The notes below the pieces were generated by a model. It made no database searches, was not told the origin of the DNA, and saw only the letters and a list, made by a program, of their open reading frames with translations. Position numbers and translations under genes: made by a program. Of a stretch of 3,412 bases of DNA, positions 1 to 3,412 are shown in pieces. This stretch comes from a virus (lineage: Duplodnaviria; Heunggongvirae; Uroviricota; Caudoviricetes). The stretch spans positions 1 through 3,412 of IMG/VR virus record IMGVR_UViG_2630968808_000007. One strand, written 5' to 3'. Numbering within the stretch: the stretch's first letter is position 1; every line of letters starts with the position of its first letter.

Positions 1-450
1 TCTGCGTTGCCTGTTGGCGTACCAGTTCCTTGGCCTTCAGCTACGCCGCCGACAGGCTGGCTGAAATGCAACGGGGCTGCTTTTTCGGCTGAAGAATACC
101 CGGAACTGGCAAAGGCTTACCCGACAAATAAATTGCCTGATTTACGCGGTGAATTTATTCGTGGCTGGGATGACGGACGTGGTGTGGATGCCGGGCGACA
201 ATTATTATCTTCACAGGGGGATGCAATAAGAAATATTGAGGGATTCGCAGATGGCGGGATCGGCATGTCTTTTGATGCAATCAGAGGGGCTTTTTACGAT
301 GCAGGAACACGATCAGCGACAATGGCGAATAACACAACTGCTATAGGCAAAACCGATGACCTTGGATTCGACGCCTCTCGTGTCGTGCCAACAGCTAATG
401 AAAACCGTCCACGTAACATCGCCTTTAATTATATTGTGAGGGCTGCATAA
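1..450 (+). CDS. Phage tail fibre protein, C-terminal variable receptor-binding domain (5'-truncated by the window edge; Sv-like half of an invertible segment)
   Basis: The frame is open from position 1 to a TAA at 448-450; the ORF track's M at 7 is a TTG, not a real start. The translation carries tail-fibre C-terminal hallmarks (GWLKCNGAAFSAEEYPELAKAY, LPDLRGEFIRGWDDGRGVDAGR, NENRPRNIAFNYIVRA) as in Mu S / P1 S / P2 H distal domains. The stop overlaps the start of the downstream tfa gene (TAATG). Confidence 0.85.
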   Translation, partial: SALPVGVPVPWPSATPPTGWLKCNGAAFSAEEYPELAKAYPTNKLPDLRGEFIRGWDDGRGVDAGRQLLSSQGDAIRNIEGFADGGIGMSFDAIRGAFYDAGTRSATMANNTTAIGKTDDLGFDASRVVPTANENRPRNIAFNYIVRAA

Positions 451-1043
451 TGAAACCTGTTTTTGATGAAAATGGGCTGGCTACAGTACCGGGTAATATG
501 CGTTGTTTTTATTATGAGGCAGTTACGTATGAATATACTGGCTGGTCTGATGAATATATTAATACTGGCGTAAGTATGCCCGCCTGTTCCACTGGTATTG
601 ACCCGGGCGAATGCATTCCGGGGAAAGTGGCAGTATTTACGGGTAAGGGATGGAGCCATGAAGAAGACCACCGCAATGAGACTGTTTACTCAATCGAAAA
701 TGGCGCAGCTGTTACAGTGGATTATATCGGTGCCATCAAAGACGGTTATGTCACGCTTTCACCGTTAACGCCATACGATAAATGGGATGGTGAGAAATGG
801 GTGACGGATACTGAGGCACAGCATAGTGCCGCAGTAGACGCGGCAGAAGCACAGCGCCAGTCGCTGATTGATGCAGCAATGGCTTCCATTAGTCTGATTC
901 AGCTGAAATTACGGGCCGGACGGAAGTTGACGCAGGCAGAAACAACCAGACTTAACGCTGTGCTGGATTACATTGACGCGGTGACGGCAACAGATACCAG
1001 CACCGCGCCGGATGTCATCTGGCCTGAACTGCCGGAGGCGTAG
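450..1043 (+). CDS. Tail fibre assembly protein (Tfa / Mu U-like chaperone)
   Basis: 197-aa ORF with ATG at 450-452 overlapping the upstream stop by 1 nt and a GAGGG Shine-Dalgarno at 438-442. The C-terminus (LNAVLDYIDAVTATDTSTAPDVIWPELP) is the conserved Tfa C-terminal motif. The position immediately after the fibre variable domain is canonical. Confidence 0.85.
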   Translation: MKPVFDENGLATVPGNMRCFYYEAVTYEYTGWSDEYINTGVSMPACSTGIDPGECIPGKVAVFTGKGWSHEEDHRNETVYSIENGAAVTVDYIGAIKDGYVTLSPLTPYDKWDGEKWVTDTEAQHSAAVDAAEAQRQSLIDAAMASISLIQLKLRAGRKLTQAETTRLNAVLDYIDAVTATDTSTAPDVIWPELPEA

Positions 1044-1455
1044 GCCATTCAATATCTGGTGCACTGGAGGTATCAACCAGCTCCAGTGCATCCAGATAAT
1101 CCAGCCACAAATTATATTGCGCCAGTTCCTCACCTTTCAGGCGACCAATCGCCGCTTTACCAGGCCATTGCTTACTGTTTATGTATTCGTTGACCTGATT
1201 AATCAATTGCTGCTTTTTCAGTTCGGCTGCGGCAATTTGTTCCTCATGAGTTGGCGGTGGAATATCAATCCATGCAGGCATTCCGTCGATGACACCTCTG
1301 TATTTTCCTTCTGGTGCTTCCTTCATAAATTCGGCAGCAACAGTGTCGTCAATTTCGATTCCATCATCGGGCCATTCGCCGGATTCCTGATAAGCGATTT
1401 TAAGCTCCACAGGGAAAAACGCATTTTTATCGGCACTGAAAATATATTTCTGCAT
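1015..1455 (-). CDS. Tail fibre assembly protein, alternative copy (Tfa' / U'-like), convergent with the + strand tfa
   Basis: 146-aa ORF on the minus strand with ATG at 1455-1453. Its C-terminus (LWLDYLDALELVDTSSAPDIEWPTPP) is a paralogous Tfa C-terminal motif, while the N-terminal part diverges from the + strand Tfa. It overlaps that gene tail-to-tail over 1015-1043. Confidence 0.85.
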   Translation of the reverse strand: MQKYIFSADKNAFFPVELKIAYQESGEWPDDGIEIDDTVAAEFMKEAPEGKYRGVIDGMPAWIDIPPPTHEEQIAAAELKKQQLINQVNEYINSKQWPGKAAIGRLKGEELAQYNLWLDYLDALELVDTSSAPDIEWPTPPAVQAR

Positions 1456-1457
1456 TT

Positions 1458-1828
1458 CTACCGTCCTATCGAAATATAACTGAATCTGTATTGCTGTGAG
1501 ATATCACTGGTTGCCACACGCCACGCTGAATTACTGATATGTTCAAAATTTACAGACAAAACCTGCGGGGCAGGATTCGACGGGTCTGACTGAACGGCAT
1601 CAGACATAACACTGACTGAAACCATCGGCTGATTAGGGAATGGTATAGGGAAGTGTCCACTGATAAAGCGGGTTGTGTTTCCTGAAAAAGTGCCAAACTG
1701 AACAATATATCCACCTGGTAGCCTGAACCATCCCGAACCAGAAGCGAATGCTCCCATATCCGGTATCTGATTATCTCCTGTGCCCACATTCCGTTTTGCC
1801 GCTTCTCCCAAACCAATGTTTTTGAGAA
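1458..1828 (-). CDS. Alternative tail fibre C-terminal variable cassette (Sv'-like), promoterless and start-less in this orientation; expressed only after inversion fuses it to the constant fibre N-terminus
   Basis: Open frame on the minus strand ending at the stop at 1460-1458, 2 nt upstream of the tfa' start. It has a Gly/Ser-rich fibre-tip-like composition (GAFASGSGWFRLPGGYIVQFGTFSGNT). The frame runs through the crossover site at 1803-1828, which encodes ILKNIGLGE. The ORF-track extension to 1883 begins with TTG and is unlikely to be a real start. Confidence 0.7.
1803..1828. promoter_or_regulatory. Crossover site (gix/hix/cix/pix-type) for the DNA invertase; right boundary of the invertible segment
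   Basis: TTCTCCCAAACCAATGTTTTTGAGAA is a 12-2-12 imperfect palindrome. It matches the recalled hixL sequence TTCTTGAAAACCAAGGTTTTTGATAA at most positions, including the AAACC / GTTT cores and the central AA. It lies 55 bp upstream of the invertase start and inside the N-terminal end of the silent fibre cassette, as in Mu G and P1 C segments. Confidence 0.7.
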
Positions 1829-1882
1829 TGACCATTCTGCTCACTAGTGGCATGCTTTCTGCTTTTTGCAGGGGATAAAACA

Positions 1883-2443
1883 ATGCTTATTGGTTATGTG
1901 AGAGTGTCAACAAATGACCAGAACACCGCATTACAGAGAAATGCGCTCGATAGCGCAGGATGTGAACTGATTTTTGAAGATAAGATAAGCGGAAAGACCT
2001 CGGAGAGGCCGGGGCTCAAAAAGGTACTCCGTATCTTGTCGGAGGGAGACACGCTGGTGGTCTGGAAACTCGATCGGCTCGGTAGAAGCATGCGGCATCT
2101 TGTCGTTCTGGTGGAGGAGCTGCGAGAGCGGGGCATTAATTTTCGCAGCCTGACCGACAGCATAGACACGTCTACGCCGATGGGCCGATTCTTCTTTCAT
2201 GTTATGGGGGCTTTGGCAGAAATGGAAAGAGAGCTCATTGTTGAACGCACCCGGGCGGGTTTAGCAGCTGCGCGAGCAAAAGGGCGGATCGGCGGTCGCA
2301 GGCCCAAATTAACGGATGAGCAATGGGCGCAGGCAGGGAGATTGATCTCAGCAGGGGAATCTCGCCAGCGTGTGGCAATAATTTACGACGTAGGGGTTTC
2401 AACACTCTACCGAAAATTTCCGGTAGGTAGTGGTAAGACATAA
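1883..2443 (+). CDS. Site-specific DNA invertase, small serine recombinase of the Gin/Cin/Pin/Hin family
   Basis: ATG at 1883 preceded by GGGGA (1871-1875). The N-terminus MLIGYVRVSTNDQNT carries the catalytic Ser, and VVWKLDRLGRS, GINFRSLTDSIDTS, MGRFFFHVMGALAEMERELIVERT and the C-terminal HTH (VAIIYDVGVSTLYRKF) are nearly identical to recalled Gin/Pin sequences. The ORF-track start at 1847 is a GTG and is unlikely. Stop TAA at 2441-2443. The exact family member cannot be assigned from memory. Confidence 0.95.
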   Translation: MLIGYVRVSTNDQNTALQRNALDSAGCELIFEDKISGKTSERPGLKKVLRILSEGDTLVVWKLDRLGRSMRHLVVLVEELRERGINFRSLTDSIDTSTPMGRFFFHVMGALAEMERELIVERTRAGLAAARAKGRIGGRRPKLTDEQWAQAGRLISAGESRQRVAIIYDVGVSTLYRKFPVGSGKT

Positions 2444-2444
2444 T

Positions 2445-2479
2445 GCAGGCCGCCAGTGAATATTGAAGCTGGCAGCCTG
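2445..2479. terminator. Candidate bidirectional intrinsic terminator between convergent invertase and DinI-like genes
   Basis: GC-rich hairpin: arm 2446-2456 (CAGGCCGCCAG) pairs with 2469-2479 (CTGGCAGCCTG), 10 of 11 bp, with a 12-nt loop. It sits in the 43-bp gap between the two stop codons. There is a short T run after it on the + strand and a moderately U-rich stretch after it on the - strand. Confidence 0.4.
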
Positions 2480-2486
2480 AACCATT

Positions 2487-2753
2487 TTACAGCCCAGCTT
2501 GGCGAACCGTCGGGAATTCAGACACCAGCCACATATCGGCCTCTTCAAACATTTCCTCCAGCATTCGATTCAACTTTTCCCGATCGCTTTTGCTGGCATC
2601 ACTATTCAAGCCGTTCGCCTGCATCGGCTTTACCTTCACTTCGGCATCAGGAAAAATCTTGTGCACCCGCTTTGTTAGCTCAGCTAGGATGATCTCTCCG
2701 GCCCCCTGGAGCCCCTCAACATTTCGCTTGTCATAAACCAGTTCAACAAACAT
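2487..2753 (-). CDS. DinI-family protein (SOS-inducible RecA modulator homolog), 88 aa
   Basis: ATG at 2753-2751 with an AGAGGA Shine-Dalgarno 5-6 nt upstream. The translation MFVELVYDK...ELTKRVHKIFPD...MLEEMFEEADMWLVSE aligns with recalled E. coli DinI (MRIEVTIAK...ELSRRIQYAFPD...ILQETWESADDWFVSE). The ORF-track extension to 3104 would run through the promoter and LexA box and is rejected. A LexA box lies in the promoter. Confidence 0.85.
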   Translation of the reverse strand: MFVELVYDKRNVEGLQGAGEIILAELTKRVHKIFPDAEVKVKPMQANGLNSDASKSDREKLNRMLEEMFEEADMWLVSEFPTVRQAGL

Positions 2754-2776
2754 ACCGATCCTCTTAAAAGTGAAAA

Positions 2777-2804
2777 TTGCCTGTGCTTGATCTGTTTTTA
2801 TAAA
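2777..2804 (+). promoter_or_regulatory. Candidate sigma70 promoter for the rightward two-gene operon
   Basis: TTGCCT (2777-2782), a 16-nt spacer, and TATAAA (2799-2804). The LexA box begins 8 bp downstream, where it would block initiation. The assignment is weaker than for the leftward promoter and alternative -10 registers exist. Confidence 0.35.
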
Positions 2805-2831
2805 AATACAACTGTATATGTATACAGTCAA
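2803..2831 (-). promoter_or_regulatory. Candidate sigma70 promoter of the DinI-like gene, with the LexA box in its spacer
   Basis: On the minus strand: -35 TTGACT (plus 2831-2826), a 17-nt spacer, and -10 TATTTT (plus 2808-2803). The LexA box at 2812-2827 fills the spacer and overlaps the -35. Confidence 0.5.
2812..2827. promoter_or_regulatory. LexA operator (SOS box)
   Basis: CTGTATATGTATACAG is a perfect CTGT-N8-ACAG palindrome with an AT-rich centre, matching the consensus TACTGTATATATATACAGTA. It lies in the 99-bp divergent intergenic region between the DinI-like gene and the 2853 operon. Confidence 0.85.
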
Positions 2832-2852
2832 TGAGCGAGTGAGGGTGCGTTT

Positions 2853-3092
2853 ATGCCTCGTCAACCGGATATTCGTGCTGCTTTTATTGCGGCCATACAG
2901 CAAAACCCGAAGGGCTATCTCTGTCTGCATACAGACAAGTTCATCGCTGAACTGCAGGAGAGGCACTGGCATTTCAGCCAGGCGGATGCAAATACATGGA
3001 TCGAGCGATACCAGCCGGACTTCGCCGATAAGACGACAAACGGCAGCGAGAACCGGTACTGGATCCTGCGTAACATGGGGAGGGTTTTCTAA
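2853..3092 (+). CDS. Hypothetical 79-aa protein, first gene of a LexA-controlled operon; function unknown
   Basis: ATG at 2853 with a GAGGG Shine-Dalgarno at 2841-2845 (7-nt spacing). Its stop TAA (3090-3092) overlaps the next gene's ATG (TAATG), indicating translational coupling. I recognise no family; the protein is Trp/His-rich and non-hydrophobic. Confidence 0.6.
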   Translation: MPRQPDIRAAFIAAIQQNPKGYLCLHTDKFIAELQERHWHFSQADANTWIERYQPDFADKTTNGSENRYWILRNMGRVF

Positions 3093-3412
3093 TGGGATTT
3101 CCATCGCCAGCCATGGATTACCAGGAGCAGCGCATGACGATAGATGTTATCTGCGGTGTAGACAACAACTGCCGGGTTATTGAAACTTCATGCGGCTGGG
3201 CCGTTATTAACGTCAGTCTGAAGCCAGAAAGAGGGGATACGTTGCTGGTTAGCATGGATGGGAGAAACCAGTTTGTGAAGCTACTGGGTCAGGCACTGAT
3301 AACGGAAGAGGGTGAGGCGATCGAAGGAGAAGCCTTGAATGATGTTACGGTGCACGGCGTTCTTACACATACGCTTAACCAAGTTAAAGACGATAAATCG
3401 CCTGTAATGTAG
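3092..3412 (+). CDS. UmuD'-like protein (LexA/UmuD S24-peptidase C-domain homolog lacking the N-terminal arm; HumD-like), 106 aa
   Basis: ATG at 3092 with GGAGG at 3079-3083 (8-nt spacing). The N-terminus M-GFPSPAMDYQEQR matches UmuD residues directly after the Cys24-Gly25 cleavage site (GFPSPAADYVEQR, recalled). Further similarity: GDTLLV vs GDLLIV, DGRNQFVKLL vs DGEFTVKKLQ, VTVHGVLTHTL vs LDVFGVVIHVV. The stop TAG falls at 3410-3412, the window end. Confidence 0.75.
   Translation: MGFPSPAMDYQEQRMTIDVICGVDNNCRVIETSCGWAVINVSLKPERGDTLLVSMDGRNQFVKLLGQALITEEGEAIEGEALNDVTVHGVLTHTLNQVKDDKSPVM

What the first reader, a model, noticed from the sequence alone, without database searches (positions are those of the whole stretch)
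1..2443. Invertible tail-fibre host-range switch with only one crossover site inside the window
The gene order fibre variable domain - tfa - tfa' (reverse) - alternative variable domain (reverse) - crossover site - invertase is the classic Mu G / P1 C / e14 P architecture. In the present orientation the + strand cassette (1-450 plus tfa) is contiguous with whatever fibre constant region lies upstream and is presumably the expressed set. The minus-strand cassette (1458-1828 plus tfa') is silent. The left crossover site is not in the window, so it must lie upstream, within the fibre gene at its constant/variable junction. The two variable domains look unrelated to each other, implying two distinct receptor specificities.
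Basis: partly seen in the sequence, partly recalled or inferred. Interest (0 to 1): 0.5.

Follow-up and report, generated by a model that had tools for sequence, protein, structure and literature searches.

The report
Invertible prophage tail-fibre switch, e14 type
This is an ordinary, well-known kind of phage DNA switch, a segment that flips to swap the tip of the tail fibre, found here in an E. coli prophage; the second flip site falls just past the end of the sequenced contig.

Summary
Window 1-2443 contains a fibre C-terminal cassette (1-450, Collar domain), its assembly chaperone (450-1043), a convergent second chaperone (1015-1455, minus strand), a second fibre cassette (1458-1814, minus strand, Gp53-like_C), a 26-bp crossover site (1803-1828) and an intact Gin/Pin-type serine invertase (1883-2443). 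The invertase is 89% identical to e14 PinE.

The window is the end of draft E. coli contig JAQA01000123.1. That contig stops 2 nt before window position 1. In sibling prophages at the same ssrA locus (right flank 99.6-99.9% identical) the partner site ends 3 nt before window position 1, at the fibre constant/variable junction.

Relatives carry the same segment in both orientations. Outer half-sites stay with the flanks and inner half-sites stay with the segment, which is the signature of exchange at the central dinucleotide. A simulated inversion gives an in-frame 215-aa fibre that nearly matches a real fibre in another prophage.

The two variable domains are unrelated in sequence. Whether the source strain still has the left site, and still inverts, cannot be read from its contig. 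This is a homologue of the e14 P segment and the Mu G segment: already known, low interest.

The parts
1..450 (+). Variable C-terminal cassette A of the tail fibre. It is Collar-domain type and resembles e14 StfE. The frame is open to the left edge. In this orientation it would be joined to the fibre constant region.
   Evidence: Pfam Collar 1e-15. PHROG 523 at 1e-73. 60% identical to e14 stfE, with the first 60 residues identical. PDB short tail fibre 9cuy at 4e-32 and T4 gp37 2xgf at 2e-15. Full-length fused versions occur in L005 and L010 (251 aa; L005 translated).
450..1043 (+). Tail-fibre assembly chaperone A (TfaE-like), partner of cassette A.
   Evidence: Caudo_TAP 1.6e-27. PHROG 105 at 5e-83. 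The identical protein is on record in 714 blocks of the assembly collection, in both P2-like and Mu-like tail modules.
1015..1455 (-). Tail-fibre assembly chaperone B, partner of cassette B. It is convergent with chaperone A and overlaps it by 29 nt.
   Evidence: Caudo_TAP 3.4e-35. PHROG 188 at 1.5e-63. It shares only its C-terminal ~80 aa with chaperone A.
1458..1814 (-). Variable C-terminal cassette B of the tail fibre (Gp53-like_C). It is currently detached from the constant region. The ORF reads on through the crossover site to possible starts at 1853 (ATG) or 1883 (TTG).
   Evidence: Gp53-like_C 3.7e-9. A simulated inversion joins it in frame to the sibling constant region and gives a 215-aa fibre that differs at only a few residues from the real 215-aa fibre of L009; the underlying DNA is 98% identical.
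1803..1828 (.). Right (invertase-proximal) 26-bp crossover site. Inner half-site TTCTCCCAAACC, core AA (1815-1816), outer half-site TGTTTTTGAGAA. On the minus strand it encodes the junction peptide L-K-N-I-G-L-G-E.
   Evidence: Unique in the window, with 0 matches in 200 shuffles. One base different from the site in siblings L001 and L014-L018. Same inner half-site and core as the e14 sites; same core as the P7 cix sites. The e14 inverted repeats published as TTGGTTTGGGAGAAGG / CCTTCTCCCAAACCAA match it.
1883..2443 (+). DNA invertase, a small serine recombinase of the Gin/Hin/Cin/Pin group, transcribed away from the segment as in Mu and e14.
   Evidence: Resolvase plus HTH_7. Mu Gin structures at E 8e-89 over residues 1-181, Ser9 present. 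89% identical to e14 PinE, 85% to P7 Cin, 77% to Mu Gin.
1901..1968 (.). Putative recombinational enhancer (Fis-binding) inside the 5' end of the invertase gene. Inferred by position only.
   Evidence: It aligns without gaps to the stretch annotated as enhancer in P7 cin, nt 19-86. DNA identity to P7 is 79% here against 68% in the rest of the gene. Synonymous-site conservation is slightly raised, 0.56 against 0.47. The signal is weak.

Best explanation
The window holds the invertible tail-fibre segment and the invertase of an E. coli prophage with a Mu-like baseplate and fibre module, integrated next to ssrA. It is a homologue of the P segment of cryptic prophage e14 and of the G segment of phage Mu.

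**Parts.** The fibre gene has a constant 5' part of about 100 codons ending in ...ALENLGLGE. That part lies just outside the window. There are two alternative 3' cassettes, each followed by its own assembly chaperone, arranged head to head inside a segment of about 1.8 kb. Two 26-bp sites in inverted orientation bound the segment.

**Mechanism.** The invertase encoded next door binds both sites and cuts at the central dinucleotide (TT/AA). It rotates and rejoins the strands, so the segment flips. Because both sites encode the same junction peptide, each orientation gives an in-frame fibre:
- Orientation A, as in the window: constant part + Collar-type tip + chaperone A.
- Orientation B: constant part + Gp53-like tip + chaperone B.

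A lysogen population would therefore release particles with two different receptor-binding tips.

**Shown here:** the parts, the right-hand site, an intact invertase, in-frame compatibility, and both orientations among relatives with half-site behaviour that fits exchange at the core.

**Inferred:** that the left site and constant region exist in this strain, that the enhancer is functional, that inversion occurs now, and that the two tips bind different receptors.
For: **Parts and domains:**

**Source and locus.** The window is the end of contig JAQA01000123.1 of GCA_000809145.1. That contig continues to smpB, bamE and recN.

**Siblings at the same locus.** L001/L016, L015, L017 and L018 are 99.6-99.9% identical to window 1802-3412. 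All have the fibre constant region and the left site CTCTCGAAAACC TT GGTTTGGGAGAA, ending 3 nt before the equivalent of window position 1.

**Both orientations on one backbone.** L016 and L018 have the Collar cassette fused to the constant region. L017 carries the same cassettes flipped, and L015 has a different cassette fused with its Collar cassette next to the invertase. P2-like prophages show the same: L004 and L006 against L007 and L011. Phage SKA5 is 96.6% identical over window 1-1827, with the Collar cassette next to its invertase.

**Half-site behaviour.** In L004 against L007, the outer half-sites TTCTCGCATACC and CGTTTATGAAAA stay with their flanks, and the inner half-site GGTTTGGGAGAA stays with the segment.

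**Frame compatibility.** The simulated inversion gives an in-frame 215-aa fibre that nearly matches the real L009 fibre.

**Population counts.** Both junction types occur in complete E. coli genomes: 117 genomes with a Gp53-like end next to the invertase and 870 with a Collar end.

**Experimental precedent.** For e14, the 1797-bp P segment inverts in culture and is inverted by PinE and PinQ (PMC4272514; PMC12529663).
Against: - The left site and the fibre constant region are not in the window and not on the source contig, so the switch is only half seen in this strain.
- Frozen relatives exist. L014 has a right flank that differs at one base only, but it has a single site and no constant region. 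L008, L009 and L010 have truncated invertase genes.
- The window's site carries a private C-to-T change at 1817, next to the core. No sibling has it, and none of 5,426 complete E. coli genomes has it. Its effect is unknown.
- The enhancer is supported only weakly.
- No receptor is known for either tip. The Gp53-like tip and both chaperones have no sequence relative with a solved structure.
Confidence: 0.85

Rival explanations
1. Frozen remnant. The strain keeps the segment, one site and the invertase, but has lost the left site or the fibre constant region (or the 1817 change disables the site). Nothing flips and only one arrangement exists.
For: L014 has a right flank that differs from the window at one base only. 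It has a single site, and unrelated phage genes lie upstream of the segment. L008, L009 and L010 have truncated invertases and L019 has no invertase. The window's site has a private substitution beside the core. The source contig stops before the expected left site.
Against: The invertase is full length, with its catalytic serine, and its protein is identical to that of siblings that occur in both orientations. All four cassette ORFs are intact. The contig breaks 1 nt from where the left site would end. That is what an assembler does when the next sequence (site plus constant region) is repeated or polymorphic in the genome. This last point is inference.
Confidence: 0.12
2. Host-benefit switch. 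The main consequence of the flip is not phage host range. It is production of the short invertase-proximal ORF (leader plus Gp53-like domain, window 1458-1853/1883, minus strand), which would block adsorption of other phages, as reported for StfE2 of e14.
For: Kirigo et al. 2025 report that inversion of the e14 P segment creates StfE2 (invertase-side leader plus gp53-like domain) and that producing StfE2 blocks T2 adsorption. The window is in the equivalent 'inverted' arrangement. Its minus-strand ORF has the same build and has ATG and TTG starts beyond the site.
Against: The Gp53-like tip here has no detectable sequence similarity to the e14 StfP tip (E = 0.63). No promoter-like site was found upstream of this ORF. 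Siblings have a complete tail module upstream (tape measure, baseplate, YmfQ), which fits a working phage or tailocin fibre. The e14 result rests on plasmid expression and docking.
Confidence: 0.1
3. Chance arrangement. The genes merely sit next to a resolvase-type gene, and the 26-bp palindrome is fortuitous.
For: Only one site can be seen in the window.
Against: The site is unique against shuffles. It differs by one base from the sites of sibling prophages that have partners in inverted orientation, and it shares its inner half and core with the e14 sites. Both orientations are seen repeatedly.
Confidence: 0.01

Closest known systems
P segment of E. coli K-12 cryptic prophage e14 (ymfQ - stfP - tfaP - tfaE' - stfE' - pinE)
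   Same: Same gene order, and the invertase is transcribed away from the segment. The invertase is 89% identical to PinE. The inner half-site and TT/AA core are the same. The segment between sites is about 1.8 kb: 1797 nt in e14, 1803 nt in the relatives that carry this window's segment, and 1875-1958 nt in the ssrA siblings, which carry other segments. Siblings have the same ~100-aa constant region ending ENLGLGE. The Collar cassette is 60% identical to e14 stfE.
   Different: The prophage and locus differ: next to ssrA rather than in icd. DinI and a UmuD'-like gene follow the invertase instead of mcrA. The middle of the Collar tip differs, and the Gp53-like tip is unrelated in sequence to the StfP tip. 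K-12 is recorded in the opposite orientation.
G segment and Gin of phage Mu
   Same: A Mu-like baseplate module (gp45-48 homologues) lies upstream in siblings. The layout S(c)-S(v)-U / U'-S'(v)-gin is the same, with gin reading away from the segment. The invertase is 77% identical to Gin and aligns with Gin crystal structures.
   Different: The Mu segment is about 3 kb. The gix sites have a different core (TC/GA) and different half-sites. The constant part of Mu S is longer (509 nt). The tips are different.
C segment and Cin of phages P1 and P7
   Same: The invertase is 85% identical to P7 Cin. The cix core TT/AA is the same as here. An enhancer is annotated inside the 5' end of cin.
   Different: In P7, cin reads towards the segment and cixL overlaps its 3' end. 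The segment is about 4 kb, with large S/S' parts and split chaperone genes.
Invertible fibre segments of P2-like E. coli prophages
   Same: L007 and L011 carry a segment 98% identical to window 1-1833, and L004 one 91% identical, with identical Tfa proteins, seen in both orientations.
   Different: The fibre constant part is P2 gpH-like (Phage_tail_fib). The invertase is 85% identical, and the flanks are the P2 tail sheath and tube genes.

Membership tests
Enhancer-dependent DNA invertase switches (Gin/Hin/Cin/Pin) | Small serine recombinase: N-terminal catalytic domain with the active serine (Ser9/10) plus a C-terminal helix-turn-helix domain | tested here: met
   Resolvase 8e-51 plus HTH_7 1.9e-14. 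Aligns over residues 1-181 with Gin structures at E 8e-89, with the YVRVST serine present.
Enhancer-dependent DNA invertase switches (Gin/Hin/Cin/Pin) | 26-bp imperfectly palindromic crossover site with a 2-bp core | tested here: met
   Window 1803-1828, unique, with 0 matches in 200 shuffles. It aligns with the e14, P7 cix and Mu gix sites. The 26-bp hix definition is in PMC3798978.
Enhancer-dependent DNA invertase switches (Gin/Hin/Cin/Pin) | A second site in inverted orientation on the same molecule, with the same core dinucleotide | not testable with these tools
   Absent from the window. The source contig ends 1 nt from where the site would end. It is present, with a matching TT/AA core, in all full-length siblings.
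Enhancer-dependent DNA invertase switches (Gin/Hin/Cin/Pin) | Recombinational enhancer with two Fis sites, in cis, usually in the 5' end of the invertase gene | tested here: inconclusive
   Positional homology to the annotated P7 cin enhancer. Conservation over coding background is only slightly raised. Fis binding was not tested.
Enhancer-dependent DNA invertase switches (Gin/Hin/Cin/Pin) | Both orientations occur, with exchange at the core | tested here: met
   Met for relatives, not for the source strain. Opposite orientations on the same backbones: L016 and L018 against L015 and L017; L004 and L006 against L007 and L011. SKA5 and L003 are also flipped. Outer half-sites stay with the flanks.
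Phage tail-fibre host-range switch (Mu G / P1 C / e14 P type) | Fibre gene split into a constant 5' part outside the segment and two alternative 3' parts inside, each with its own chaperone, both fusions in frame | tested here: met
   Both cassettes and both chaperones are in the window. In-frame fusion was simulated with the sibling constant region and matched to real fibres of L009 and L005. The constant part itself is outside the window.
Phage tail-fibre host-range switch (Mu G / P1 C / e14 P type) | The two tips confer different receptor or host specificity | not testable with these tools
   The tips are unrelated in sequence and belong to different Pfam families, which makes different specificity likely. 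No receptor data exist.
Cryptic prophage e14 itself | Integrated in icd, with mcrA following pinE | tested here: not met
   The source contig runs from the invertase through dinI and two small ORFs to smpB, ratA, bamE and recN. e14 has pinE-mcrA-icdC. This is an e14-like switch in a different prophage.
Multi-site inversion systems (p15B Min, shufflons) | More than two crossover sites inside the variable region | tested here: not met
   There is no further full site or inner half-site in window 1-1802.

The most novel reading that the evidence does not exclude
The invertible segment may move as a unit between unrelated prophages by recombination at the crossover sites themselves, that is, invertase-mediated exchange between molecules rather than ordinary homologous recombination. 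Three observations fit this. Window 1-1827 is about 98% identical to segments in P2-like and other Mu-like-tail prophages. Window 1802-3412 is 99.9% identical to an ssrA prophage whose own segment is largely different. The switch-over falls inside the 26-bp site, and the only base that differs from the sibling flank in 1.6 kb lies next to the core.
Probability: 0.12. Interest if true: 0.4.

Novelty: already known. Interest (0 to 1): 0.12.

Why it matters
It matters little beyond annotation. The locus is a textbook invertible fibre switch, and near-identical copies are already present and annotated in many E. coli genomes and in phage SKA5.

Practical points:
- The 'gp53-like domain-containing protein' ORF next to the invertase is a detached fibre 3' cassette, not a free-standing gene.
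- Draft contigs tend to end at such sites.
- Sibling prophages on the same backbone carry different fibre-tip cassettes, which is relevant to predicting phage or tailocin host range.

Tried and rejected
**Finding the source by exact DNA patterns.** A 47-nt pattern from the window start found only a non-identical IMG/VR contig (L003) and nothing among the species-representative genomes. A 63-nt pattern across the site found nothing in the metagenome, genome or viral collections. The source was found instead by exact look-up of the junction-spanning ORF.

**Other searches without result.**
- The Rfam scan gave no match.
- The promoter and terminator scan was no richer than shuffles and gave no promoter for the detached cassette.
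- PDB sequence searches gave nothing for the Gp53-like tip or for either chaperone.

**Enhancer test.** Synonymous-site conservation gave only a weak signal.

**Readings considered and rejected.**
- A multi-site (Min or shufflon-like) system: only one site is present.
- e14 itself: different locus and neighbours.

**Not attempted.** I did not look for the sister contig carrying the fibre constant region in the same assembly. The look-up tools need an exact protein sequence, and a gene product cut off at a contig end cannot be guessed.
Full report
**What is in the window**

- An open frame enters from the left edge and stops at 450.
- A 197-aa ORF lies at 450-1043.
- A convergent 146-aa ORF lies at 1015-1455 on the minus strand.
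- A minus-strand ORF at 1458-1883 follows.
- A plus-strand ORF ends at 2443.

Pfam assigns these to Collar (1e-15), Caudo_TAP (1.6e-27), Caudo_TAP (3.4e-35), Gp53-like_C (3.7e-9) and Resolvase plus HTH_7 (8e-51 and 1.9e-14). PHROGs agrees: tail collar fibre, two tail-fibre assembly families, tail fibre or virion protein, and DNA invertase.

The invertase aligns over residues 1-181 with the crystal structures of Mu Gin (3uj3 and 4m6f, E about 1e-88). It keeps the catalytic serine in YVRVST. It is 89% identical to e14 PinE, 85% to P7 Cin and 77% to Mu Gin.

The sequence TTCTCCCAAACCAATGTTTTTGAGAA at 1803-1828 is the only match in the window to a degenerate invertase-site palindrome. None of 200 shuffles produced a match. 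There is no second copy of the site or of its inner half.

The two fibre tips are unrelated in sequence (E = 12). The two chaperones share only their C-terminal 80 residues.

**Where the window comes from**

No complete E. coli genome covers more than about 70% of the window in one place. Exact DNA patterns found no source. Exact look-up of the junction-spanning ORF found one contig: JAQA01000123.1 of assembly GCA_000809145.1, 30,129 bp.

Past the invertase, the contig runs through dinI, two small ORFs and a hypothetical gene to smpB, ratA, bamE and recN. This is the ssrA region of E. coli. The contig ends only 2 nt (GT) to the left of window position 1. The sequence upstream of the window therefore does not exist on this contig.

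**The missing left site**

Several prophages at the same ssrA locus are 99.6-99.9% identical to window 1802-3412: L001/L016, L015, L017 and L018. Each has a Mu-like baseplate module (DNA circularisation protein, gp44-48 homologues, YmfQ) followed by a short fibre gene.

In each of them a 26-bp site, CTCTCGAAAACC TT GGTTTGGGAGAA, lies in the fibre gene. It is inverted relative to the invertase-side site TTCTCCCAAACC AA CGTTTTTGAGAA, with 1.9-2.0 kb between the arms. In L001 this left site ends 3 nt before the base that aligns with window position 1.

The source contig breaks 1 nt from the site. That is what one expects if the next sequence (site plus constant region) is repeated elsewhere in the genome or is polymorphic in the culture. 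This point is inference and cannot be settled without the reads.

**Evidence that such segments really flip**

On the same ssrA backbone:
- L016 and L018 have the Collar cassette fused to the constant region.
- L017 has the same cassettes in the opposite orientation.
- L015 has a different cassette fused, with a Collar cassette next to the invertase.

The chaperone protein of window 450-1043 occurs with an identical sequence in P2-like prophages in both orientations (L004 and L006 against L007 and L011). It also occurs in Mu-like-tail prophages in both orientations (L005 and L010 against L009).

Phage SKA5 is 96.6% identical over window 1-1827, with the Collar cassette lying next to its invertase. 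IMG/VR contig L003 shows the same arrangement.

The half-sites behave as expected for cleavage at the central dinucleotide. In L004 against L007, the outer halves TTCTCGCATACC (fibre side) and CGTTTATGAAAA (invertase side) stay with their flanks. The inner half GGTTTGGGAGAA stays with the segment.

Two 448-nt junction queries were searched against complete E. coli genomes. The junction as in the window found 117 genomes with at least 80% coverage. The simulated flipped junction found 870.

**Frame compatibility**

The site encodes L-x-N-(L/I)-G-L-G-E when read from either cassette. I joined the sibling constant region at the core to the reverse complement of window 1458-1814. This gives an uninterrupted 215-aa fibre that differs at only a few residues from the real 215-aa fibre of L009. 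The underlying DNA is 98% identical. The Collar cassette fused form exists as the 251-aa fibre of L005.

**Mechanism**

The mechanism follows established knowledge of this invertase group. Two 26-bp sites, a serine recombinase and an enhancer bound by Fis form an invertasome. Subunit rotation then exchanges the strands (PMC3798978).

The stretch of the window's invertase gene that corresponds to the enhancer annotated in P7 cin (nt 19-86) is window 1901-1968. It is slightly better conserved than the rest of the gene:
- DNA identity to P7 is 79% against 68%.
- Synonymous-site identity is 0.56 against 0.47.

This is weak, so I score the enhancer as inconclusive.

**Comparison with known systems**

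The closest system is the e14 P segment. Gene order, invertase direction, inner half-site and core are the same. Segment length is similar: 1797 nt between arms in K-12, which equals the 1797 bp reported by Kirigo et al..

Inversion of e14 P has been detected in ordinary cultures by sequencing and PCR (PMC4272514). It has also been quantified by qPCR with PinE and PinQ (PMC12529663).

This locus is not e14. It sits next to ssrA rather than in icd, and it has different neighbours. Mu G and P1/P7 C are more distant relatives of the same kind. The window is in the arrangement that corresponds to the 'inverted' e14 state (StfP2/StfE2).

Kirigo et al. report that the invertase-proximal ORF with the gp53-like domain (StfE2) blocks T2 adsorption. 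I keep that as a rival function for the ORF at 1458-1853/1883. However, the tip here is not detectably similar to that of e14, and no promoter-like site was found upstream of this ORF.

**Caveats for this strain**

Frozen relatives exist.
- L014 has a right flank differing at one base only, but a single site and no fibre constant part.
- L008, L009 and L010 have truncated invertase genes.
- L019 has none.

The window's site has a private base. Position 1817 is T where all siblings have C. It is the only difference from L014 and L015 in 1,611 nt, and it lies next to the AA core. No complete E. coli genome has this allele. It may be a harmless change, a sequencing error, or a lesion of the site. 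I cannot tell which.

**Mosaic structure**

Window 1-1827 is 98% identical to segments in other prophages (L007, L009, L011). Window 1802-3412 is 99.9% identical to the ssrA prophage, whose own segments match the window only in patches. The two alignments overlap exactly on the 26-bp site. The segment therefore behaves as an exchangeable cassette between unrelated phages. To my knowledge, horizontal exchange of tail-fibre genes among unrelated phages has long been described for these fibres.

**Verdict**

This is a correct reading by the first stage of a well-known kind of element. Nothing in the anatomy departs from the e14 and Mu model. Interest is low.

Noticed in passing
window 2810-2829: AACTGTATATGTATACAGTC is a near-perfect LexA (SOS) box palindrome, CTGT-N8-ACAG. 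None of 200 shuffles matched. It lies in the divergent region between the dinI-like gene (2487-2753, minus strand) and the ORFs at 2853-3092 and 3092-3412. These prophage-end genes are therefore probably SOS-induced.
   Followed up: partly
window 3092-3412 (+): A 106-aa UmuD-like protein (PHROG 3469, 5e-47). It begins MGFPSPAMDYQEQR, at the position where UmuD is cleaved to UmuD' (aligns to UmuD residues 25-44), so it looks pre-processed. The region that should hold the SGDSM active-site serine is not recognisable, and Pfam gives no hit. It sits with a DinI homologue at 2487-2753 (Pfam DinI 3.4e-23).
   Followed up: partly
window 1817: The only base that differs from siblings L014 and L015 across 1,611 nt (1802-3412) is T instead of C, directly next to the AA core of the crossover site. 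The allele is absent from 5,426 complete E. coli genomes. It could be a mutation, a recombination scar or a sequencing error.
   Followed up: partly
window 1 (source contig JAQA01000123.1, position 1-3): The draft contig ends 2 nt upstream of the window, 1 nt from where the left crossover site would end. Assemblies seem to break at this switch, either because the constant region plus site is repeated in other prophages or because both orientations were present in the culture.
   Followed up: no
window 1-1827 versus 1802-3412: Mosaic structure. The segment is 98% identical to segments of P2-like (L007, L011) and other Mu-like-tail (L009) prophages. The right flank is 99.9% identical to an ssrA prophage that carries other segments. 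The switch-over lies within the 26-bp site.
   Followed up: partly
L014 5100-6800; L008, L009, L010 invertase regions; L019: Decayed versions of the switch. L014 has one site only. L008, L009 and L010 have invertase genes truncated after about 115-121 codons. L019 has a fixed fibre and no invertase.
   Followed up: no
window 966-983 and 1092-1109: A short inverted repeat arises because the two convergent chaperone genes encode the same C-terminal motif (LDYIDA / LDYLDA). It was seen as GCTGGATTACATTGACGC / GCATCCAGATAATCCAGC in relatives. It is a by-product of homology, not a site.
   Followed up: no
window 2853-3092 (+): A 79-aa ORF of unknown function that matches PHROG 3893 end to end (1.3e-41). 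It is conserved with the UmuD'-like gene downstream of the LexA box in all ssrA siblings.
   Followed up: no
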